From contig JAQUAK010000003.1 of NCBI GenBank assembly GCA_028687275.1, positions 5,547 through 69,546 on the forward strand: a stretch of DNA of 64,000 bases. Reading direction: 5' to 3'. The notes under the pieces were generated by a model. It made no database searches, had not been told where the DNA came from, and saw only the letters and a program-made list of their open reading frames with translations. This document shows, one piece after another, positions 4,309 through 11,811 of the stretch; the first letter of the stretch is position 1; every line of letters starts with the position of its first letter. The DNA comes from Patescibacteria group bacterium (lineage in GTDB: Bacteria; Patescibacteriota; Patescibacteriia; Patescibacteriales; UBA12465). The translations under genes and the position numbers were made by a program.

Positions 4309-5247
4309 ATGAATAAGAAGCTGAAAACAATTTTTATGGGCACTCCCGATTTTGCTGTTCCTGGGCTACAAAGTCTTTTGGCGTCATCTGATTTCGAAGT
4401 AATGGCCGTCTATACACAGCCAGATAAAAGTGCCGGCCGTAAACATATACTTACCCCTCCTCCTGTAAAAAAAATAGCTCTAGAAAAAAATATACTAGTT
4501 TTCCAACCAGAAAAAATTAAAACTGCTATGGAAAATATTAGCTCTCTCCAGCCAGACTTAATTGTCGTTATCGCTTATGGGAAAATTATCCCCCAAGCCA
4601 TCCTCGATTTACCAAAATATGGCTGTGTTAATGTACACGCCTCTCTCTTGCCTAAATATCGAGGAGCTTCATGCCTACAGGCTGCCATTAAAAATGGGGA
4701 TAAGAAAACTGGTGTTACTATTATGAAAATGGACGCTGGTCTTGATACCGGGCCAATACTAACACAATTAGAAATTACTTTGAGCGGCAAGGAGAATTTA
4801 GAAGAAATACATGATAAATTATCAAAATTAGGGGCAGATAATTTAGTCTCAACCTTAATTGATTATTGTAATAATAAAATTATCGCCCAAACACAAGATG
4901 AAAGCAAAGCTAGTTACGTTGGTTTAATCACCAAAGAAGACGGCTTTCTTAACCCACAAAATAGTGCTGAAGAAATAGAAAGACAAATCAGAGCCTATAA
5001 TCCCTGGCCAGGCACATATTTAATCTTAGACAATCAAGAAAAAATGAAAATTATTGAAGCAGAAGTATTTGAAGCAGCTAATTCTCAATTAGTCGGATCA
5101 TTTTATATTGAAAATAACCAGCTATACCTTACGTGTGGACAAAATTCATTACATATATTAAAATTACAACGTGAAAATCGGAATGCTTTATCGGCCTCCG
5201 ACTTTTTAAAAGGCAATAAAGATATTGTAAAATTTAAAGCCACTTAA
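4309..5247 (+). CDS. fmt: Methionyl-tRNA formyltransferase
   Basis: 312 aa with FMGTPDFAVP N-terminus, VNVHASLLPKYRGASCLQAAI formyltransferase core and a C-terminal Fmt domain. Confidence 0.95.
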   Translation: MNKKLKTIFMGTPDFAVPGLQSLLASSDFEVMAVYTQPDKSAGRKHILTPPPVKKIALEKNILVFQPEKIKTAMENISSLQPDLIVVIAYGKIIPQAILDLPKYGCVNVHASLLPKYRGASCLQAAIKNGDKKTGVTIMKMDAGLDTGPILTQLEITLSGKENLEEIHDKLSKLGADNLVSTLIDYCNNKIIAQTQDESKASYVGLITKEDGFLNPQNSAEEIERQIRAYNPWPGTYLILDNQEKMKIIEAEVFEAANSQLVGSFYIENNQLYLTCGQNSLHILKLQRENRNALSASDFLKGNKDIVKFKAT

Positions 5248-5249
5248 AA

Positions 5250-5321
5250 GGTCCCATCGTCTAACGGTTAGGACGCCAGGTTCTCATCCTGGTAATAGGG
5301 GTTCGATTCCCCTTGGGACTA
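5250..5321 (+). tRNA. tRNA-Glu (anticodon CTC)
   Basis: Cloverleaf by hand: acceptor GGTCCCA/TGGGACT, D arm GTCT-AACGGTTA-GGAC, anticodon arm CCAGG-TTCTCAT-CCTGG, T arm AGGGG-TTCGATT-CCCCT. CCA is not encoded. Confidence 0.9.
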
Positions 5322-5329
5322 CAAATCAA

Positions 5330-5361
5330 AAAAACATCCAGTAAACTAACTGGATGTTTTT
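5330..5361. terminator. Bidirectional terminator (tRNA-Glu on +, HIT/Fic operon on -)
   Basis: AACATCCAGT (5333-5342) pairs with ACTGGATGTT (5349-5358), with an A-run before and a T-run after. Confidence 0.75.
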
Positions 5362-5369
5362 ATATAAAA

Positions 5370-5843
5370 TTATAAGCCCCATTTTTCTTCATTGTATTTA
5401 TCATCTTGTAAAACTATATCAATCTGCTTTTTAATCTCTTCAATATCCTCATTATTTAATGGTTCAAAACCATCATAAAATCCGGTTCCTCTGTCTGGTA
5501 AATAAACACTTTCTGGCCAGACTTGTTTTGCTACATTACTTGCTCTACCAAATACATGGATGTGTAAAAATGGTTTAGTGCTTGTTTTCCAGGCCCAATT
5601 CCCCATGTCTTGGTAATTTATTTTTATCACTGGAATACCTAAATTATTCATTGCCATTTCCATAGCCGCTCCAACTACCATTGTTAGTCGCATTAATTCA
5701 ATGGCGGTCTTTGGGTCGAGTTTAGTTCTATCTGTAATACTGTCATCTTTTACTCTAATTCTAATGTGACCACCATCCGTTCTTGAGATGAATGGTTTCT
5801 CGTGCGACTCAACTATGAAATTTTTAGTTTCGTAAATTTGCAT
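5370..5843 (-). CDS. HIT (histidine triad)-like nucleotide hydrolase/transferase
   Basis: 157 aa. INYQDMGNWAWKTSTKPFLHIHVFGR aligns by eye to the HIT motif HxHxHxxG, with the middle and last His kept and the first replaced by Phe. Starts 5 nt after the fic stop. Confidence 0.6.
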   Translation of the reverse strand: MQIYETKNFIVESHEKPFISRTDGGHIRIRVKDDSITDRTKLDPKTAIELMRLTMVVGAAMEMAMNNLGIPVIKINYQDMGNWAWKTSTKPFLHIHVFGRASNVAKQVWPESVYLPDRGTGFYDGFEPLNNEDIEEIKKQIDIVLQDDKYNEEKWGL

Positions 5844-5848
5844 ATTTT

Positions 5849-6787
5849 TTATCTTATTCTTTCTCTGCCTTCTAAATAATTTTTTAACGCCTCCTTAGTA
5901 GTTAACCAATTTCTTCCTTCTTTATGAGCTTCTAATTTGCCACTGCGAGCTAATAAATTTAAATATTTATCGCTAAATTTAGTGGTTTTAGCCAACTCTG
6001 ATAAACTAATATATTTTTCTTTATATTCTTTCTTGGGTATTAAAACTTTAAGATAAATATCTAAAGTTCTTTCAACTGCTCTGGCAATAAAATTAACAAA
6101 TAAAGAATAATTGCCCTTATCTGCTGAGGCTAAGGCTGTATAGTAACGCTGACGATCGCTTTTTAAGATAACAGCCAAGGGAAATCCTGATTGCATTAAA
6201 ATAATATTCATTACCAATCTAGATGTGCGTCCATTACCATCAAAGAATGGGTGAATATTTACTAACTTATGATGAATAATACTTGCTAGCTCAACAGGGT
6301 GCTGTTTTTTATTTAAAGAGTACCATTTTATTAATTCTCTCATTAAGCCAGGAACTTTAACCACTTCAGGCGGTTTATGGTCAGCTCCTCCAATAATAAC
6401 ACCACTATTACGATATCTTCCCGCCCACTCTTTATCAATATTTTGTTGTACTATTTGATTAAGTGACCTTATTAAATTTTCTGAAAAAGTATTATGTTTA
6501 TCTTTTTCTATTAACTCATATAAATAATCTAAAGCTTCCTGGTGATTTTTAGCTTCAAGGTGATCTTTTAGTGGTTTCCCTTTAATAGTAATTCCTTCGT
6601 TAATAACTAAATAAGTTTCTTTGAGTGTTAAACTGTTTCCTTCAATGGCATTGGAATTATAGGTTAATTCTATTTCAAATTGCTCTTTTAATTTTTGAAC
6701 AACACTAACTGGCAGCGGCCTAAATTTATTAAGTCTATGCAATTTCTCATCTATTCTATTTTTTACTTTTTGATCTAAATAGGTCAT
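5849..6787 (-). CDS. fic: Fic family protein (AMPylase-type) with N-terminal inhibitory motif and C-terminal HTH
   Basis: Fic motif HPFFDGNGRTSRL. Inhibitory-helix motif (S/T)xxxE(G/N) present as SNAIEGN upstream of the Fic core. The C-terminal YISLSELAKTTKFSDKYLNLLARSGKLEAHKEGRNWL looks like an excisionase/MerR-type HTH. Confidence 0.9.
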   Translation of the reverse strand: MTYLDQKVKNRIDEKLHRLNKFRPLPVSVVQKLKEQFEIELTYNSNAIEGNSLTLKETYLVINEGITIKGKPLKDHLEAKNHQEALDYLYELIEKDKHNTFSENLIRSLNQIVQQNIDKEWAGRYRNSGVIIGGADHKPPEVVKVPGLMRELIKWYSLNKKQHPVELASIIHHKLVNIHPFFDGNGRTSRLVMNIILMQSGFPLAVILKSDRQRYYTALASADKGNYSLFVNFIARAVERTLDIYLKVLIPKKEYKEKYISLSELAKTTKFSDKYLNLLARSGKLEAHKEGRNWLTTKEALKNYLEGRERIR

Positions 6788-6817
6788 ATATGCTTAATAT
6801 GGTTTACATATAAATTA

Positions 6818-6846
6818 AGTATATACCATATTACGGCTTTAGTCAA
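6818..6846 (-). promoter_or_regulatory. Putative sigma70-type promoter of the fic-HIT operon
   Basis: On the minus strand, TTGACT (6846-6841), a 17-nt spacer, then TATACT (6823-6818), about 30 nt upstream of the fic ATG. Confidence 0.5.
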
Positions 6847-6867
6847 TATACAGAGCACCGCAAGCAA

Positions 6868-6917
6868 TGTATACAAAACGCCCTCGTTTGTATACATTGA
6901 CGAAAAAGATGTATACA
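6868..6917. promoter_or_regulatory. Array of three TGTATACA palindromes at exact 21-bp spacing (putative operator)
   Basis: TGTATACA at 6868-6875, 6889-6896 and 6910-6917. Sites 1 and 2 also form a near-perfect extended inverted repeat, CAATGTATACAAAACG / CGTTTGTATACATTG. Located just upstream of the fic -35 box. Confidence 0.6.
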
Positions 6918-7134
6918 AACCTATAAAATTTCCACCCACTTCTCAATCTCCCTAATAATTCCGTCAAATTTTTGGTAAATATCGGACTTTAAGACTACAT
7001 AAAGAAAAAAGTCCAGCGAGTGCTGCGGCTTTTCTATATAATTAACCGTTTATTTTATTACCATAGCAATAACTTTTAAATTTTTAGAAAAGTGAAGATG
7101 TGCACAAGGCTCTAGTGTAAGGCATTGCCAATAA

Positions 7135-7163
7135 TTGACAAATCTATTAAAATATTATATATT
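7135..7163 (+). promoter_or_regulatory. Putative promoter of the 7209..7538 gene
   Basis: TTGACA (7135-7140), 17-nt spacer, TATATT (7158-7163). Confidence 0.45.
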
Positions 7164-7208
7164 CTTATGTTATTTAATAAATTAATACTAACCTAATAAA
7201 TATAGAAA

Positions 7209-7538
7209 ATGTACACAACTAAAGCAGGAAAACTCAATGTTGCAGTGGGGAGAACTGGTATTATAGAAGGTGATTTAGTTACAATAAATTTTCCTTCAGA
7301 CCAATTCAACTTATTATTATCAGTGTCTAGATCAGGCGAAGAAGAACAAAGAATGCTGTTTGAATTCCCAAATGATGATAAAAAGATTATTTATGGATAC
7401 CCATGCAATAAAGCTGGGGCTAAAGAATTGATGTCTCTCATTTGCCAAATTACGGGGCTTCAAGCTAAATTGTTCAGAGAACTTTCTGGCGGTATAATTT
7501 ATGAAATGCAGAAAGGTCAAAATATTTTTGCACAGTAA
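7209..7538 (+). CDS. Hypothetical protein (orphan)
   Basis: 109-aa ORF with its own promoter-like element and a hairpin terminator. No family recognised. Confidence 0.5.
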   Translation: MYTTKAGKLNVAVGRTGIIEGDLVTINFPSDQFNLLLSVSRSGEEEQRMLFEFPNDDKKIIYGYPCNKAGAKELMSLICQITGLQAKLFRELSGGIIYEMQKGQNIFAQ

Positions 7539-7562
7539 AGTAATAAAAAATTTATCTCTCCA

Positions 7563-7589
7563 CCTCATCACACAAAGATGGGGTTTTTT
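7563..7589 (+). terminator. Rho-independent terminator
   Basis: CCTCATC (7563-7569) pairs with GATGGGG (7577-7583, one G-U pair), followed by TTTTTT. Confidence 0.6.
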
Positions 7590-7958
7590 ATTTTCTAAAA
7601 AAATAATCAGACTCATGAAAAGTAACTTTAGACCTAATATTGGAAAAAATAATAATGGTTTCTGAGACGACAACTTGTATTACAAAACATAAATTGACAT
7701 AAGATTGTTATTTAAAAAACCTACCTAAATTTTTAAATTTACCTAGCAACCCAACACAGTGCCCGGAAACTTCTGATTTTGAGACTACTTGTATAGATAC
7801 CTACTAAAAGCCTGTTTTTTAACAATATGCTATAATAAATATTAATAAGCTAAAGCCTATAATTATTTTTCTTAAAGTAATGATTCCTATTTTTACAATC
7901 CAAGCCTTTAATTAATACTAACTAAATTGCTTTAGATACTAAAAACTACATATTATAT

Positions 7959-8543
7959 ATGACGGCATTAAATATATCTCCAATTACGCCAATCAGAAAT
8001 TTAAATAATAATCCACTCCCAATAAATAATAACCACGGTTCTTCTATAAAAGTAACTCCTAAAAAAGGGGCTTTCGATAATATAGATATTGATGAAATTG
8101 GCCAAGGCCGTTTAATGACTGAAGGTTCATATGACTCCCGCTTCGGTAAAAATAAATATATGGGGCTTAAAGGGCAGCTAATGAAAGCAAAGCATGAGGG
8201 TAGGCACTCTACTACAAAAAATCTCTCAATGAGCAATATCAAGCAAATACATGATGTAATTGCTAAGCATCTAAAAAAACAAGCAGTTAATTCTAAGACC
8301 TACATAAGCAGAGGAGACAGATTAGCTATAATGAAAGAATCCAGGGCTATGGTAAGGTCTAAGGATAGTAATTTTACTTCACAAGACAGGCAAGATTTAA
8401 TAAAAATTGTAGATAGCTTGCAAAAACAATATAAGGATAAAATTCTTCACAGGAGAGATGATATCCATAGTCCTAGATTAGAAAGATTAACGTCTGCTTC
8501 TATTGATAGACAAGACTCTAATTTATTAAATAAAAATTTATAA
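7959..8543 (+). CDS. Hypothetical hydrophilic protein (orphan, Asn/Lys-rich)
   Basis: 194-aa ORF. An extended -10-like TGCTATAAT sits at 7828-7836 and a terminator lies downstream. No family recognised. Confidence 0.5.
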   Translation: MTALNISPITPIRNLNNNPLPINNNHGSSIKVTPKKGAFDNIDIDEIGQGRLMTEGSYDSRFGKNKYMGLKGQLMKAKHEGRHSTTKNLSMSNIKQIHDVIAKHLKKQAVNSKTYISRGDRLAIMKESRAMVRSKDSNFTSQDRQDLIKIVDSLQKQYKDKILHRRDDIHSPRLERLTSASIDRQDSNLLNKNL

Positions 8544-8625
8544 ATACATCGATATTAATTAATAATGACGTAATTATTAATAAATTATAAATTCCCTTTT
8601 GTCTTTTCCAAAAGGATTAAAATTT

Positions 8626-8656
8626 AAAAGGACATGTTTCAAACATGCCCTTTTTT
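8626..8656. terminator. Bidirectional terminator between convergent genes
   Basis: GGACATGTTT / AAACATGCCC stem (one mismatch) with an A-run upstream and TTTTTT downstream. Confidence 0.65.
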
Positions 8657-8671
8657 GTAATCTTAAATAAA

Positions 8672-9193
8672 TTATTTTTTAGCTTCAGCCAATTCCTGTT
8701 GTCTATCAGCCAACCAAGAATCCCAAGTAGCAAGATATTGAGGAAAACTCAACTTATTGGCAACAATATGGTTTAACCATGCCTCTCCTAGAGAAAAATT
8801 GTCTTTTAGAGCATTTCTAAAACCTTTAGTATCAGCAAAGCCAAATTTCTCCCTTAACTCAGCTTGAGCCTCTTCTTTGCTGCGATGCTCCATTTTCTCC
8901 AAAGAACCATCATTCTTTAATTGACTATAAAGCTCAATTTCTTTTTGACGATCCATGAGCCAAGAATCCCAAGTAGCCTCATATTGAGGAAAGCTATCCT
9001 TGTTTTCCAAAATATAGTCAAGCCATTCTGAGGCTAACTCAATTTTACCTTGCTGTAAGGCTAATTGAAAATCTGAGGTTTTTCTCAGACCAAATTTTTC
9101 AATTAATTCTTTTTGAGCCTCTTCTTTTGTCCTTTTTAGTTCCATGTTGTCCTCCGATTCTTTTTGATTTAAAAAACTACTGTCATTTATCAT
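8672..9193 (-). CDS. Hypothetical protein made of two ~82-aa tandem copies
   Basis: 173 aa. KEEAQKELIEKFGL...SFPQYEATWDSWLMDRQKEIE is repeated as KEEAQAELREKFGF...SFPQYLATWDSWLADRQQELA. Confidence 0.6.
   Translation of the reverse strand: MINDSSFLNQKESEDNMELKRTKEEAQKELIEKFGLRKTSDFQLALQQGKIELASEWLDYILENKDSFPQYEATWDSWLMDRQKEIELYSQLKNDGSLEKMEHRSKEEAQAELREKFGFADTKGFRNALKDNFSLGEAWLNHIVANKLSFPQYLATWDSWLADRQQELAEAKK
8675..9133 (-). repeat. In-frame tandem duplication (2 x ~246 nt)
   Basis: An identical 18-mer CCAAGAATCCCAAGTAGC occurs at 8714 and 8960, an offset of 246 nt (82 codons). The surrounding sequence is similar in both copies. Confidence 0.75.
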
Positions 9194-9261
9194 AATAATT
9201 TTTTTAATTATTTTTAAATAATAACGTAAATAGCTAACTTTTTCAAGGTGTCACTGTTTAA

Positions 9262-9293
9262 AGAAAAAGACCTGCGTTAAACAGGTCTTCTTT
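9262..9293 (-). terminator. Rho-independent terminator of the sigma / membrane-protein operon
   Basis: AGACCTG / CAGGTCT stem. On the minus strand it is followed by TTTTTCTTT. Confidence 0.7.
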
Positions 9294-9320
9294 AAAAATC
9301 CTAATAAACAACCGCCCCGC

Positions 9321-10967
9321 CTATCTAACCATTGGCATTATCTCCATGTCTCCCGGCTGTACCCTAATTTCCCTTTCTACTAGTAACTCCTTAACTAATG
9401 GCACAACTACTGAACGCTGGCCATAATAAGATAAACTGTTTTTACTTATAACGGGAAAGACTAAAGCTGGAACTAACAGCTCTTCATTAACATTATTTTT
9501 ATATTGCCAATACTGTACGTAGGCTCGACTGGGAGTGCCTAATTCAACTTCTTGAATATCATTATCATCTATACCTTCATAATACATGCCCGTTTGCATA
9601 CCCACCTCAGCTACTTTTACAATTCTAGCGAAATCTGTTTCCAAGGCATAATCGGAACTTTGATAACGATAAGGACTAAGGCCATTTAGGCCAGCAGCTG
9701 TTTTGTGCAATAAGCTAAGGTTAACTCTTAAGCCATATAAATTGCCTCCTTGATCTAAAACAGGAGCATCCTCAACTAATAGTGGATAAACAACACTAAT
9801 GTAATCAGGAATATAATAATTTGCCTTATCCGTAGACCTCTCATAATCATCTCTCCAGTTATTATCAACTTGAGCCTCACCATAATGGTCCAAGCTAATA
9901 CTATGATCTTTAATAAACTTATCACTCATAGCTATTAAATCAACACTGTTAGGTACATCACTAATTTTAGTTCTAAATCCATCCCAACAAGCGCTATCTA
10001 GTCCGCAGGCATCTCTTTCTGGGTTCTGCCATTTCTGCCAATTCTCATAAATATAAATATTGTCATTTAAGAAATCGAAGTTAACCGCCAAGCCCTTATC
10101 CTTGTCTTCAATTAAAGATAAATTAGTAACTTTAAGACTATTAAAAGTTTGAATATCTAAATCTTTGAAGTTAAGATTCTTAACTAAAGACAATAAAGAA
10201 GAGTTAGAGATTAGTCCGCCTGTTAAACGCTTATAAACGGCACCTGACGCCTCTTCTAAATTTAACTGCTCACCAGTGTATACATATTTTATTTGATACC
10301 AAGGGGCAATCATTTTACTGGCATTAATATGACCATCACCACCCAATCCATAAGCACCTGAAGACATGGCTCTGGCAATGCCTTGCTCTGAAGAAATAGT
10401 AGAGGCCCCTTCTATCGAGCCCGTTGAGCTAAATGTTGTATCCCCCATAATGGGCACAGCTAAGTCCATATCACGGGCAGCGACTGATGTTACTCCCATC
10501 GAACCAGAAACAGATGATAATGAACCAAAGGCATTAGAAGCTAAACGCACCACCTCTTCTTCATTTGTAATTGAGCTATCTAAGGCGAGATTTATTAATT
10601 CTTCCTTATGGTCATTTTTAGCAATATCAACTTTATTTATATCCGAATTTAATTGTTTAAAGTTTGGGAGTCTATATGCTAATACTGTCAGGAATAAAAC
10701 CAAAACTAAAGCTGAACCAATATACAAATACTTCTGTTGATTAATAAAATTAAAAGAAAATTTACGCTCAGGAATTCTAATATCTTCTTGCAAACGACTC
10801 ATCACCCGCTGTTTAATCTGAGCCGCTAAAGCAGGTGTAAAAGGAGTCTTGGAACCTAAGTCCGACATTTGTCCAATAATTTCTTTTAAAATACCTTCGT
10901 GTTCGCGTAAACTGATATCCAACTGATATAGCTCTTGCAAAATATTACTTAATTCACGCTCTTCCAT
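9321..10967 (-). CDS. Membrane-anchored protein with large extracytoplasmic domain, putative anti-sigma factor
   Basis: 548 aa with a short cytoplasmic N-terminus, one TM segment (YLYIGSALVLVLFLTVLAY) and about 440 aa outside. Its start overlaps the ECF sigma stop by 19 nt. The anti-sigma role is inferred from context only. Confidence 0.55.
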   Translation of the reverse strand: MEERELSNILQELYQLDISLREHEGILKEIIGQMSDLGSKTPFTPALAAQIKQRVMSRLQEDIRIPERKFSFNFINQQKYLYIGSALVLVLFLTVLAYRLPNFKQLNSDINKVDIAKNDHKEELINLALDSSITNEEEVVRLASNAFGSLSSVSGSMGVTSVAARDMDLAVPIMGDTTFSSTGSIEGASTISSEQGIARAMSSGAYGLGGDGHINASKMIAPWYQIKYVYTGEQLNLEEASGAVYKRLTGGLISNSSLLSLVKNLNFKDLDIQTFNSLKVTNLSLIEDKDKGLAVNFDFLNDNIYIYENWQKWQNPERDACGLDSACWDGFRTKISDVPNSVDLIAMSDKFIKDHSISLDHYGEAQVDNNWRDDYERSTDKANYYIPDYISVVYPLLVEDAPVLDQGGNLYGLRVNLSLLHKTAAGLNGLSPYRYQSSDYALETDFARIVKVAEVGMQTGMYYEGIDDNDIQEVELGTPSRAYVQYWQYKNNVNEELLVPALVFPVISKNSLSYYGQRSVVVPLVKELLVEREIRVQPGDMEIMPMVR

Positions 10968-11539
10968 ATATTTATTAAACCAGGCACAATCATAAAGATT
11001 GCTAAAGGCATATTATTTTTTATTTTTTTTAAAGCTCTTCCACAGCTCATCTTAATTGAGCCCTCGTTTTTGTCTAATTGCTTGGCAATCTCTTTAAAAG
11101 ATAAGTCCATCCAGAAACGCATAATTAGAATTTCACGTTCCTCTTTTTTAAGAGCTGAGAGAGCAACTCTAACTTTATCAAAATTTAAACCATTATCAAT
11201 TTGCTCTAGAAAATCATGCTTATCAGCTAAATCCCAGCAATCATCGATATTAAAATACTGCTGCTCACGTCTATAATGATCGGCAATCTTGTGGCGTGCA
11301 ATTGTATATAACCAAGCGGAGAAATTACCACTCTTAAATTGCCATAACTTTTGCCAAACCTTAATAAAAACTTCACTACAGATATCTTCAGCCACAACTC
11401 TATTTAAAGTCTTATAATAAATAAAGTTATAAATCTTTTTAATATAAAGATCATAAAGACCGCTAAAAGCCTCCTGGTTGCCAGCTCTAGAAGCTTCGAC
11501 CAGCTCTGTTTCAATTTGTTGTTCTGCACTTATGGCCAT
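10949..11539 (-). CDS. ECF-type RNA polymerase sigma factor (sigma-70 family, regions 2 and 4)
   Basis: 196 aa. Region 2-like FSAWLYTIARHKIADHYRR and region 4 HTH EREILIMRFWMDLSFKEIAKQLDKNEGSIKMSCGRALKKI. Confidence 0.88.
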   Translation of the reverse strand: MAISAEQQIETELVEASRAGNQEAFSGLYDLYIKKIYNFIYYKTLNRVVAEDICSEVFIKVWQKLWQFKSGNFSAWLYTIARHKIADHYRREQQYFNIDDCWDLADKHDFLEQIDNGLNFDKVRVALSALKKEEREILIMRFWMDLSFKEIAKQLDKNEGSIKMSCGRALKKIKNNMPLAIFMIVPGLINIWKSVN

Positions 11540-11731
11540 AATTGCATTTATTTGTTCTTCTAACTATTATATCAAACGCTGATAATAATAAAAAGTAACA
11601 AAAGTAAATTTTATTGATAATGTCTAATAATCTGACTAATATTCAGCTGACTCTTGTCAAAAAAAAATATTTTTGATACTATCTAAATAATTCCTTGGGC
11701 TGAAAAGCCTTTTTATTTGAGGAAGAAAAAA

Positions 11732-11804
11732 GCGCCTATAGCTCAGTTGGTAGAGCAGCTCCCTTTTAAGGAGACGGTCGTGGGTTCGAATCCCCCTGGG
11801 CGCA
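11732..11804 (+). tRNA. tRNA-Lys (anticodon TTT)
   Basis: Acceptor GCGCCTA/TGGGCGC, D arm GCTC-AGTTGGTA-GAGC, anticodon loop CTTTTAA, T loop TTCGAAT. There is one mismatch in the T stem. CCA is not encoded. Confidence 0.85.
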
Positions 11805-11811
11805 CCCCTAA

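What the first reader, a model, noticed from the sequence alone, without database searches (positions are those of the whole stretch)
5370..6787. Fic-HIT two-gene operon: possible nucleotidylation writer/eraser or toxin module
A Fic protein is followed after 5 nt by a HIT-like protein on the same strand, between one promoter (6818-6846) and one terminator (5330-5361). The Fic protein has an intact HPFFDGNGRTSR active site, an intact SNAIEG auto-inhibitory motif and a C-terminal HTH. The HIT-like protein carries LHIHVFG, keeping the middle (nucleophile) and last His of the triad. Fic enzymes transfer AMP or other NMP to protein hydroxyls. HIT enzymes cleave or transfer nucleotidyl groups through a covalent His-NMP intermediate. 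A dedicated HIT partner could reverse the Fic modification, detoxify its nucleotide product or supply its substrate. I do not recall a described Fic-HIT module, but that is memory only and no search was run.
Basis: partly seen in the sequence, partly recalled or inferred. Interest (0 to 1): 0.65.

Follow-up and report, generated by a model that had tools for sequence, protein, structure and literature searches.

The report
Fic gene beside unrelated HIT gene
A Fic (protein-AMPylating) gene and a HIT-like nucleotide-hydrolase gene do sit 5 bases apart in this Patescibacteria genome, but comparison with about 170 related loci shows that the pairing is a local accident of gene order beside a variable "Fic slot", not a conserved two-gene system.

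Summary
A 312-aa class II Fic protein (5849-6787, minus strand) is followed after 5 nt by a 157-aa HIT-fold protein (5370-5843). One promoter-like site lies upstream and one terminator downstream.

The proposed writer/eraser or toxin module is not supported.
- The HIT-like protein belongs to a small, highly conserved family of Patescibacteria and DPANN archaea. It sits behind many unrelated genes, such as ATP synthase alpha, RuvB and release factor. Only 1 of 73 upstream neighbours is a Fic.
- Among 80 loci carrying orthologues of this Fic, HIT follows in 3. All 3 are in the closest clade (Fic at least 93% identical), and 2 of them carry a TAG stop in HIT.
- One close relative has the Fic alone, running straight into the terminator and tRNA-Glu.
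- Another has cleanly deleted the Fic and kept HIT on the Fic promoter.
- In the same clade the slot upstream of HIT holds three different Fic paralogues. All three match the SoFic anti-phage defence model.
- The nearest solved relative of the Fic core is FICD, which removes its own AMP marks.

Best reading: a core HIT gene that probably has no promoter of its own sits downstream of a variable SoFic-like slot. Interest is low. A functional link restricted to this clade is not excluded (about 7%).

The parts
5849..6787 (-). 312-aa class II Fic protein ('Fic312'): an FICD-like core with a C-terminal HTH. It matches the SoFic defence model.
   Evidence: Pfam Fic 1.5e-22. PADLOC SoFic 3.1e-37. Best PDB sequence match is FICD, 2.1e-40 over residues 4-246. 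Orthologues of 62-96% identity were found in 80 metagenome loci.
6638..6655 (-). Auto-inhibitory motif SNAIEG (residues 45-50), fitting [ST]xxxE[GN]. Its position N-terminal of the core marks a class II Fic.
   Evidence: Regex on the translated ORF. The class definition is as summarised in PMC12249575.
6218..6253 (-). Fic catalytic motif HPFFDGNGRTSR (residues 179-190).
5864..6013 (-). C-terminal helix-turn-helix region (residues 259-308), of the excisionase/MerR-like HTH_17 type.
   Evidence: Pfam HTH_17 4.3e-5, 24.1 bits against a cut-off of 27. TIGR01764 1e-5. Orthologues P0129 and P0186 carry a precomputed PF12728 hit.
5370..5843 (-). 157-aa divergent HIT-fold protein, a member of a small family of Patescibacteria and DPANN archaea.
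   Evidence: Pfam HIT 21.3 bits against 21.5. Foldseek against the PDB returned only HIT proteins in its top 50 matches. More than 589 homologues, 66-92% identical among the 120 listed. 285 clusters at 50% identity in 1.84 billion proteins.
5550..5570 (-). FLHIHVF (residues 92-98), a HIT motif in which the first His is replaced by Phe. H94 aligns with the FHIT nucleophile H96, and H96 with FHIT H98.
   Evidence: H94 and H96 are invariant in alignment A1.
6818..6846 (-). Promoter-like site upstream of the Fic gene (TTGACT, 17 nt, TATACT).
   Evidence: In L002 the same region (window 6833-6757) lies directly upstream of HIT after loss of the Fic gene.
5330..5361 (-). Intrinsic-terminator-like hairpin with a T-run, after the HIT gene.
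5250..5322 (+). tRNA-Glu(CTC), convergent with HIT. It is the conserved anchor of the locus, together with fmt, a VTT/DedA gene and def further on.
   Evidence: The HIT/tRNA-Glu arrangement is also seen in L001 and L003. The fmt-VTT-def synteny is seen in L087, L098 and L178.
6922..7010 (-). Conserved intergenic element of about 85 nt that marks the boundaries of gene units in relatives. The window has a single copy, upstream of the Fic promoter.
   Evidence: alignment A2. No Rfam match. No conserved fold.

Best explanation
These are two functionally independent genes that happen to share a transcript.

The HIT-like gene is a conserved core gene of Patescibacteria and DPANN archaea. It is most likely a small-molecule nucleotide hydrolase or transferase that works through a His94-NMP intermediate. 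In this clade it lies next to tRNA-Glu-fmt-VTT-def, and it appears to have no promoter of its own.

Immediately upstream is a variable slot. In different close relatives this slot holds one of three distantly related SoFic-like Fic genes (312, 342 or 381 aa), an unrelated 227-aa gene, or nothing.

The Fic in the window is a self-contained class II, FICD-like AMP transferase. It is auto-inhibited by its own Glu49 helix and probably acts as a stand-alone stress or anti-phage (SoFic-type) enzyme.

The tight 5-nt junction arises because only those rearrangements persist that leave a co-oriented promoter and no terminator in front of HIT. The gene families, the distribution of neighbours and the deletion variants are shown by tool results. 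The promoter dependence of HIT, the defence role of the Fic and both enzyme chemistries are inferred.
For: HIT side:
- In 80 species-level genome loci, the neighbours of HIT form no conserved cluster.
- Of 73 upstream genes, 53 are on the same strand and 24 lie within 30 nt.
- Of the 36 same-strand upstream genes within 60 nt, several are ATP synthase alpha, RuvB, release factor, ABC ATPase, a family-2 glycosyltransferase, FtsW or MiaA. Only L001 has a Fic.
- A sensitive scan (five Fic queries plus a motif regex) finds a Fic within 6 kb in 3 loci and adjacent in 1.

Fic side:
- Of 80 loci with Fic312 orthologues, HIT follows in L098, L103 and L104 only.
- That is 3 of the 10 loci at 93% identity or more, and 0 of the 62 loci at 82% or less that have at least 500 nt of downstream sequence.
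- The 73 downstream genes fall into 55 clusters.
- Other orthologues sit beside a CD-NTase with Cap15 (CBASS), an nSTAND NTPase, or a PEP-utilizer gene.

Decay within the clade:
- L100 runs from Fic312 straight into the terminator and tRNA-Glu-fmt.
- L002 lost Fic312 by a deletion between A-rich microhomologies and kept the Fic promoter plus 10 Fic codons fused to HIT.
- L103 and L104 have TAG at the near-invariant W109 of HIT, next to an intact Fic that is 94% identical.

Slot behaviour:
- Fic342 followed by HIT in L081-86.
- Fic342, then Fic312, then HIT in L087.
- Fic381 followed by HIT, with the same fmt-VTT-def synteny, in L178, and Fic381 followed by HIT in L001.
- A 227-aa gene followed by HIT in L088.
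- The three Fic paralogues are only 25-31% identical to one another. All match PADLOC SoFic, at 3e-37, 1.5e-44 and 4e-106. AbiEii lies nearby in L081.

Other points:
- The Fic312 core is closest to FICD (2e-40).
- The HIT family is occasionally fused to His_Phos_1 plus GDPD, to a methyltransferase, or to Ham1, but never to a Fic.
Against: - Within the shallow clade, 5 of about 9 distinct HIT contexts have a Fic directly upstream at a gap of 5-23 nt, and they involve three different paralogues. This is more than a random expectation and could reflect selection for the pairing.
- A class II SoFic has been reported to have a downstream antitoxin, the 47-aa AS1 (PMC12249575), so a downstream partner is not implausible in principle.
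- No biochemical data exist for either family.
- The metagenome contigs that lack HIT next to the Fic could carry it elsewhere in the genome.
- The match to the SoFic model covers only positions 61-305 of 361 for Fic312. The NCBIfam SoFic equivalog cut-off is far from met (35 bits against 550), so the defence role is weakly founded.
Confidence: 0.75

Rival explanations
1. Dedicated Fic-HIT module. The HIT protein acts on the Fic's product. It could remove AMP from modified targets, hydrolyse a toxic nucleotide by-product, or neutralise the Fic like an antitoxin. The two genes would then be kept together by selection, at least in this clade.
For: - The gap is 5 nt, with one promoter-like site and one terminator.
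- The adjacency recurs in close relatives with three different SoFic-like paralogues at gaps of 5-23 nt.
- The intergenic repeat element is never found between a Fic and HIT where they abut.
- HIT enzymes bind AMPylated proteins: hinT was used as an AMPylation enrichment reagent (PMC12375108).
- From general knowledge, HIT enzymes also remove AMP from lysine or DNA adducts (HINT1, aprataxin).
- A downstream antitoxin is reported for an E. coli SoFic (PMC12249575).
Against: - The adjacency is absent outside one shallow clade on both sides: 1 of 73 on the HIT side and 0 of 62 on the Fic side.
- Fic-only and HIT-only derivatives exist among the closest relatives.
- HIT carries a nonsense codon beside an intact Fic in L103 and L104.
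- The HIT family is 66-92% identical across phyla whatever its neighbours. That pattern fits a core function, not an accessory of a mobile toxin.
- The Fic carries its own inhibitory, FICD-type Glu.
- HIT has no PADLOC match and is never fused to a Fic.
Confidence: 0.08
2. The genes are independent, but the Fic is not a defence gene. Fic312 would be a housekeeping, FICD-like reversible AMPylase that regulates an endogenous target, such as a chaperone or a topoisomerase. Its C-terminal HTH would autoregulate the promoter. HIT would be an unrelated core gene that happens to lie downstream.
For: - Fic312 is itself well conserved (62-96% identity over 80 loci) and widespread in Moranbacteria-like genomes, which suits a resident regulator.
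- The best structural relative by sequence is FICD.
- The inhibitory Glu is intact.
- Many downstream neighbours are ordinary housekeeping genes.
- The NCBIfam SoFic equivalog cut-off is not met.
Against: - The PADLOC SoFic and PDC-S04 models match at 1e-33 to 1e-37.
- Orthologues lie directly beside CBASS and an nSTAND NTPase, with an integrase and a Pif1 helicase nearby.
- The slot is exchanged among three Fic paralogues and lies near AbiEii. That is typical of defence hot spots.
- The gene's genomic position changes even at 93-96% identity.
Confidence: 0.17

Closest known systems
FICD/HYPE-type class II Fic AMP transferases (human FICD, C. elegans FIC-1; also Bacteroides BT_2513, PDB 3cuc, and Clostridioides difficile Fic, PDB 4x2c)
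   Same: The Fic core aligns over residues 4-246 at E = 2e-40. The HPFxDGNGRxxR motif and the N-terminal [ST]xxxE[GN] inhibitory helix are both present.
   Different: There is no TPR or transmembrane N-terminus. It has a C-terminal HTH_17-like domain instead. It is bacterial and 312 aa long. Its targets and any de-AMPylation activity are untested.
SoFic single-gene anti-phage defence (PADLOC PDLC03963), and the reported SoFic-AS1 toxin/antitoxin pair of E. coli H397 (PMC12249575)
   Same: It is a class II Fic and matches the SoFic HMM at 3e-37. The paralogues that occupy the same slot match at 1.5e-44 and 4e-106. Orthologues lie beside CBASS and an nSTAND NTPase. In both cases a gene lies directly downstream.
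   Different: Fic312 lacks the Fic_N region and covers only profile positions 61-305 of 361. The NCBIfam SoFic equivalog scores 35 bits against a cut-off of 550. The downstream gene here is a 157-aa conserved HIT-fold protein, not a 47-aa peptide, and it is not a conserved neighbour.
Fhit/Hint-type HIT nucleotide hydrolases and Ap4A phosphorylases (PDB 3i4s, 3nrd, 3ohe, 3wo5, 7p8p, 4inc)
   Same: The fold is the same (Foldseek probability 0.97-1.0, TM 0.46-0.65 for the longer Fhit-like chains). The GH strand and the xxHxHxx motif align with the FHIT nucleophile H96 and with H98.
   Different: The first His of the triad is Phe. Sequence searches against the PDB find nothing. The family has a unique, invariant KQxWPESxYLPDRxTGFY segment, which is modelled with low confidence (residues 99-124). 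The family is small and restricted to Patescibacteria and DPANN archaea. Its substrate is unknown.
Class I Fic toxin-antitoxin modules (VbhT-VbhA, FicT-FicA) and Doc-Phd
   Same: Each is a two-gene operon containing a Fic-fold enzyme.
   Different: In those modules the partner supplies the inhibitory Glu helix in trans and is a strictly conserved neighbour. Here the inhibitory helix is in cis and the neighbour is not conserved.

Membership tests
Fic/Fido family (Pfam PF02661) | Fic domain with the catalytic motif HxFx(D/E)GN(G/K)RxxR | tested here: met
   Pfam Fic 80.6 bits against a cut-off of 24. HPFFDGNGRTSR at residues 179-190.
Class II Fic (cis auto-inhibited) | Inhibitory motif [ST]xxxE[GN] on a helix N-terminal of the Fic core, in the same chain | tested here: met
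   SNAIEG at residues 45-50. This stretch aligns with the FICD region that contains its inhibitory helix. The class definition is as given in PMC12249575.
Class II Fic (cis auto-inhibited) | AMP (or other NMP) transfer to protein hydroxyls, relieved by mutating the inhibitory Glu | not testable with these tools
   This needs an enzyme assay of the wild type against E49G.
SoFic anti-phage defence | Match to the curated SoFic models | tested here: inconclusive
   PADLOC SoFic 3.1e-37, but only over profile positions 61-305 of 361. The NCBIfam equivalog NF046030 scores 35 bits against a cut-off of 550.
SoFic anti-phage defence | Protection against phage when expressed | not testable with these tools
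   Only context is available. Orthologues lie beside CBASS and an nSTAND NTPase, and AbiEii lies near the slot in L081.
HIT superfamily (Pfam PF01230) | Profile match at the gathering threshold | tested here: inconclusive
   21.3 bits against 21.5 for the window protein. Several orthologues carry a precomputed PF01230 hit.
HIT superfamily (Pfam PF01230) | HIT alpha+beta fold | tested here: met
   The AlphaFold model has pLDDT 73 and pTM 0.73. All 50 top Foldseek PDB matches are HIT proteins, with probability up to 1.0, although the E-values are only about 1e-2.
HIT superfamily (Pfam PF01230) | Histidine triad HxHxHxx (x = hydrophobic) | tested here: inconclusive
   The sequence is FLHIHVF. The nucleophile-equivalent His (H94) and the third His (H96) are invariant, and the first is Phe, Tyr or Leu.
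Two-gene toxin-antitoxin or writer-eraser module | Adjacency of the two families conserved across independent lineages | tested here: not met
   On the HIT side, 1 of 73 upstream neighbours is a Fic, and it lies in the same clade. On the Fic side, HIT follows in 3 of 80 loci, all in the clade at 93% identity or more.
Two-gene toxin-antitoxin or writer-eraser module | The toxin gene is not retained without an intact partner | tested here: not met
   L100 has Fic312 with no HIT between it and tRNA-Glu. L103 and L104 have an intact Fic312 next to a HIT with a TAG stop at W109. A HIT copy elsewhere in those genomes could not be checked.

The most novel reading that the evidence does not exclude
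In this Moranbacteria-like clade the conserved HIT-fold enzyme has been recruited as a common downstream partner of interchangeable SoFic-type Fic enzymes. It would either reverse their AMPylation or destroy a nucleotide product. This would explain why three Fic paralogues that are only 25-31% identical each abut HIT at 5-23 nt, with no boundary repeat or terminator in between. It would be the first HIT-family de-AMPylase or immunity factor for a Fic.
Probability: 0.07. Interest if true: 0.6.

Novelty: new member of a known kind. Interest (0 to 1): 0.2.

Why it matters
If the pairing were functional, it would add a new class of eraser or antitoxin to Fic biology. The comparative evidence argues against that, so the main value here is negative: it saves an experimental follow-up on a gene order that is probably positional.

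Two by-products are modestly useful.
- A compact HIT-fold family, very highly conserved in Patescibacteria and DPANN archaea, has an unknown substrate and a unique invariant loop. It is a candidate for a core nucleotide-handling function of reduced-genome symbionts.
- There is evidence for a variable slot, bounded by an 85-nt repeat, in which SoFic-like Fic genes are swapped in a candidate-phyla-radiation lineage.

Tried and rejected
I use it only for the register of the motifs.
- I looked for a degraded second Fic (Fic342 or Fic381) in the window upstream of 6787 and found none. No second HIT copy is present in the window.
- The 85-nt element was tested as an RNA and as phage-derived DNA. It has no Rfam family, no conserved structure (-0.77 kcal/mol), no match in the phage collection, and no other copy in the window.
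- I considered that the repeat might be a tRNA-Glu fragment, that is, an att site. Only a short TGTAGTC stretch resembles the tRNA, seen by eye, and this was not pursued.
- A literature search for a described Fic-HIT system returned nothing relevant. It found only the use of hinT as an AMPylation-binding reagent.
- A multimer prediction of the pair could not be run with the tools available.
Full report
**What is in the window**

On the minus strand, an ORF at 5849-6787 (312 aa) is followed after 5 nt by an ORF at 5370-5843 (157 aa). A sigma-70-like site (TTGACT, 17 nt, TATACT) lies at 6846-6818. A 13-bp hairpin with a T-run lies at 5361-5330. The scan placed no promoter-like or terminator-like site in the junction. 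A tRNA-Glu(CTC) gene at 5250-5322 converges on the terminator. It is followed by fmt, a VTT/DedA-family gene and def. The 157-aa protein is 100% identical to a hypothetical protein of a Patescibacteria metagenome-assembled genome.

**The Fic protein**

- It has a Pfam Fic domain (1.5e-22).
- The catalytic motif HPFFDGNGRTSR is at residues 179-190. The inhibitory motif SNAIEG is at residues 45-50, N-terminal of the core. This makes it a class II, cis-inhibited Fic (classes as summarised in PMC12249575).
- The C-terminal 50 residues match HTH_17/excisionase models just below their cut-offs.
- By sequence, the closest solved structures are human FICD (2.1e-40 over residues 4-246) and its C. elegans homologue. 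From published work on FICD, which I cite from general knowledge, the inhibitory Glu of that enzyme is the catalytic residue for de-AMPylation. Such enzymes act as their own erasers.
- In the PADLOC library the protein matches the single-gene defence system SoFic at 3.1e-37, over profile positions 61-305 of 361. The NCBIfam SoFic equivalog is far below its cut-off (35 bits against 550).

**The HIT-like protein**

- Pfam HIT scores 21.3 bits against a gathering score of 21.5.
- Sequence and profile searches against PDB sequences find nothing.
- An AlphaFold model built from 21 family members (pLDDT 73, pTM 0.73) returns only HIT-superfamily structures from the PDB. These include uncharacterised Fhit-like proteins (3i4s, 3nrd, 3ohe), Ap4A phosphorylase, Fhit, Hint1/2 and aprataxin, with probabilities up to 1.0 but E-values near 1e-2.
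- The motif FLHIHVF aligns so that H94 matches the FHIT nucleophile H96 and H96 matches H98. The first triad position is Phe. Placement in the HIT superfamily therefore stands, as a divergent branch.
- The family is unusual. The 120 listed homologues are 66-92% identical, and those with source names come from several Patescibacteria lineages (Magasanikbacteria, Gracilibacteria, Paceibacteria/Pacebacteria, Parcubacteria). It is also found in Woesearchaeota, Nanoarchaeota and Micrarchaeota assemblies.
- An exhaustive profile search of 1.84 billion representative proteins finds only 285 clusters at E of 1e-3 or better.
- The family has an invariant segment, KQxWPESxYLPDRxTGFY, which the model cannot place confidently.
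- Rare fusions join it to histidine phosphatase plus glycerophosphodiesterase, to methyltransferases, and to a Ham1 fragment, but never to a Fic.

**Is the adjacency conserved? The HIT side**

- A scan of one genome per species found 96 relatives and kept 80 loci with 6-kb flanks. My ORF calls recovered the HIT gene in 76 of them.
- Clustering all flanking genes gave no partner family present in more than 5 loci.
- Of 73 upstream genes, 53 are co-oriented and 24 lie within 30 nt. This small gene is therefore commonly the distal member of tight operons.
- The upstream genes are heterogeneous. Pfam annotation of the 36 closest co-oriented ones gives ATP synthase alpha (in those loci HIT sits between the alpha- and gamma-subunit genes), RuvB, release factor, ABC ATPases, family-2 glycosyltransferases, GTPases, FtsW and MiaA. 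Only L001 has a Fic.
- A sensitive Fic scan (five divergent queries plus a motif regex) found a Fic within 6 kb in only three loci and adjacent in one.
- About 3 Fic genes occur in roughly 0.8 Mb of flanking sequence. On that rough basis, one adjacent case in 73 is not significantly above chance. It also belongs to the same shallow clade as the window.

**Is the adjacency conserved? The Fic side**

- The Fic is itself a conserved orthologue group (62-96% identity), mostly labelled Moranbacteria.
- In 80 metagenome loci, HIT follows the Fic in only three (L098, L103, L104). All three are among the ten loci at 93% Fic identity or more. None of the 62 loci at 82% or less that have at least 500 nt of downstream sequence has it.
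- The 73 downstream genes fall into 55 clusters with ordinary and varied functions.
- Individually inspected orthologues are followed by an nSTAND NTPase, by a CD-NTase plus Cap15 CBASS operon, with an integrase and a Pif1 helicase upstream, or by a PEP-utilizer gene. In the PEP-utilizer case the gene occupies the very same tRNA-Glu-fmt-VTT-def neighbourhood.

**Variation within the clade**

Nucleotide alignment of the window against its closest relatives and inspection of the junctions show the following.
- L087 and L098 have the same Fic312-HIT-fmt-VTT-def arrangement. L087 has an additional 342-aa Fic upstream.
- L100 has Fic312 running directly into a terminator and tRNA-Glu-fmt, with HIT absent.
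- L002 has lost Fic312 by a deletion between A-rich microhomologies. The Fic promoter region and ten Fic codons remain, fused in front of HIT.
- L103 and L104 carry TAG in place of the near-invariant Trp109 codon of HIT, beside an intact Fic.
- Other relatives have, immediately upstream of HIT, a 342-aa Fic (L081-86, 23-nt gap), a 381-aa Fic (L001 and L178; L178 has fmt-VTT-def downstream, as in the window), an unrelated 227-aa protein (L088), an ArsP permease gene, or a divergently transcribed beta-CASP metallo-beta-lactamase gene.
- The three Fic types are only 25-31% identical to one another. All three match the SoFic model, and the 381-aa one matches over its full length at 4e-106. AbiEii lies nearby in L081.

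**Interpretation**

The simplest account is that HIT is a core gene anchored beside tRNA-Glu, and that the position just upstream of it is a variable slot populated by alternative SoFic-like Fic genes.

In every variant the upstream gene is co-oriented, no terminator intervenes, and L002 retained the Fic promoter when it lost the Fic. I therefore infer that HIT has no promoter of its own in this clade. On that view, rearrangements survive only if they keep read-through transcription, and this would produce tight junctions with whichever gene occupies the slot. This step is inference and is not shown.

The rival explanation, a functional Fic-HIT partnership, draws its only real support from the recurrence of three paralogues next to HIT and from two precedents. 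HIT proteins bind AMPylated proteins (PMC12375108), and a 47-aa downstream antitoxin has been reported for an E. coli SoFic (PMC12249575). Against it stand the lack of any association outside the clade, the Fic-only, HIT-only and HIT-nonsense variants, the very high conservation of HIT regardless of context, and the Fic's own inhibitory Glu. I put the partnership at about 0.08.

**Comparison with known systems and verdict**

- The Fic is a new member of the class II, FICD-like/SoFic-like Fic enzymes.
- The HIT-like protein is a divergent, uncharacterised branch of the HIT superfamily.
- The pair does not meet the defining criterion of a toxin-antitoxin or writer-eraser module, which is conserved co-occurrence.
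- I found no description of a Fic-HIT system in the searchable literature. Given the evidence above, that absence is not a sign of novelty.
- Interest is low (0.2). The residual novel reading is given separately.

Noticed in passing
window 6922-7010 (minus strand); also L002 6512-6599, L081 2724-2807 / 4504-4596 / 7676-7771, L087 1527-1611 / 2846-2936, L103 190-291 / 1855-1938, L107 781-889 / 1987-2062: A conserved intergenic element of about 85 nt (consensus ATGTAGTCTTAAAGTCnCATATTTCCGAAAAATTTGnTGAGATTATTGGGGAAATTGAGAAGTGGGnGGAAATTTTA). It always lies just after a terminator hairpin, is co-oriented with the genes, and flanks the Fic342, Fic312 and HIT units in relatives. It is never found between a Fic and HIT where they abut. 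The window has one copy; relatives have 2-3 per 8 kb. There is no Rfam match and no conserved fold. It could be a cassette boundary, a recombination site or a shared promoter region.
   Followed up: partly
window 5370-5843; loci L001-L080; proteins P0241-P0390: The HIT-like protein defines a compact family (285 clusters at 50% identity in 1.84 billion proteins). The family looks restricted to Patescibacteria and DPANN archaea. The 120 listed homologues are 66-92% identical. It has an invariant KQxWPESxYLPDRxTGFY loop of unknown role. In Roizmanbacteria-type loci (L045-L047, L050) it sits between the ATP synthase alpha- and gamma-subunit genes. Rare fusions join it to His_Phos_1 plus GDPD, to methyltransferases and to Ham1.
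   Followed up: partly
L103 1681-1683 and L104 (same codon), the position of W109 in the HIT gene: A TAG stop replaces the near-invariant Trp109 codon (TGG) in two metagenome contigs, while the rest of the ORF stays conserved. This is a recent pseudogene, or possibly a read-through or recoding event. The neighbouring Fic312 is intact.
   Followed up: partly
L092-L094 4001-6471; L089-L091 4001-8945: Orthologues of the window's Fic (75-76% identical) lie 12 nt upstream of a CD-NTase plus Cap15 CBASS operon, with an integrase and a Pif1 helicase upstream. In another lineage they lie upstream of a 1296-aa nSTAND NTPase, preceded by a GIY-YIG gene. This is defence-island-like context for this Fic family in Patescibacteria.
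   Followed up: partly
window 6790-11730 (between the Fic gene and tRNA-Lys at 11732-11806): In relative L095, tRNA-Lys lies about 190 nt upstream of Fic312. The window has about 4.9 kb of extra sequence here. It encodes an ECF-type sigma factor (10949-11539), an overlapping 548-aa protein with no Pfam match (9321-10967), and three small ORFs without annotation (7209-7538, 7959-8543, 8672-9193). The whole tRNA-Lys to tRNA-Glu interval looks like a variable island.
   Followed up: no
L088 3312-3995 and L102 2592-3281: A 227-229-aa protein with no Pfam or PADLOC match (78% identity between the two copies). In L088 it sits directly upstream of HIT (5-nt gap), and in L102 directly downstream of Fic312. 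It is another occupant of the same variable slot.
   Followed up: no
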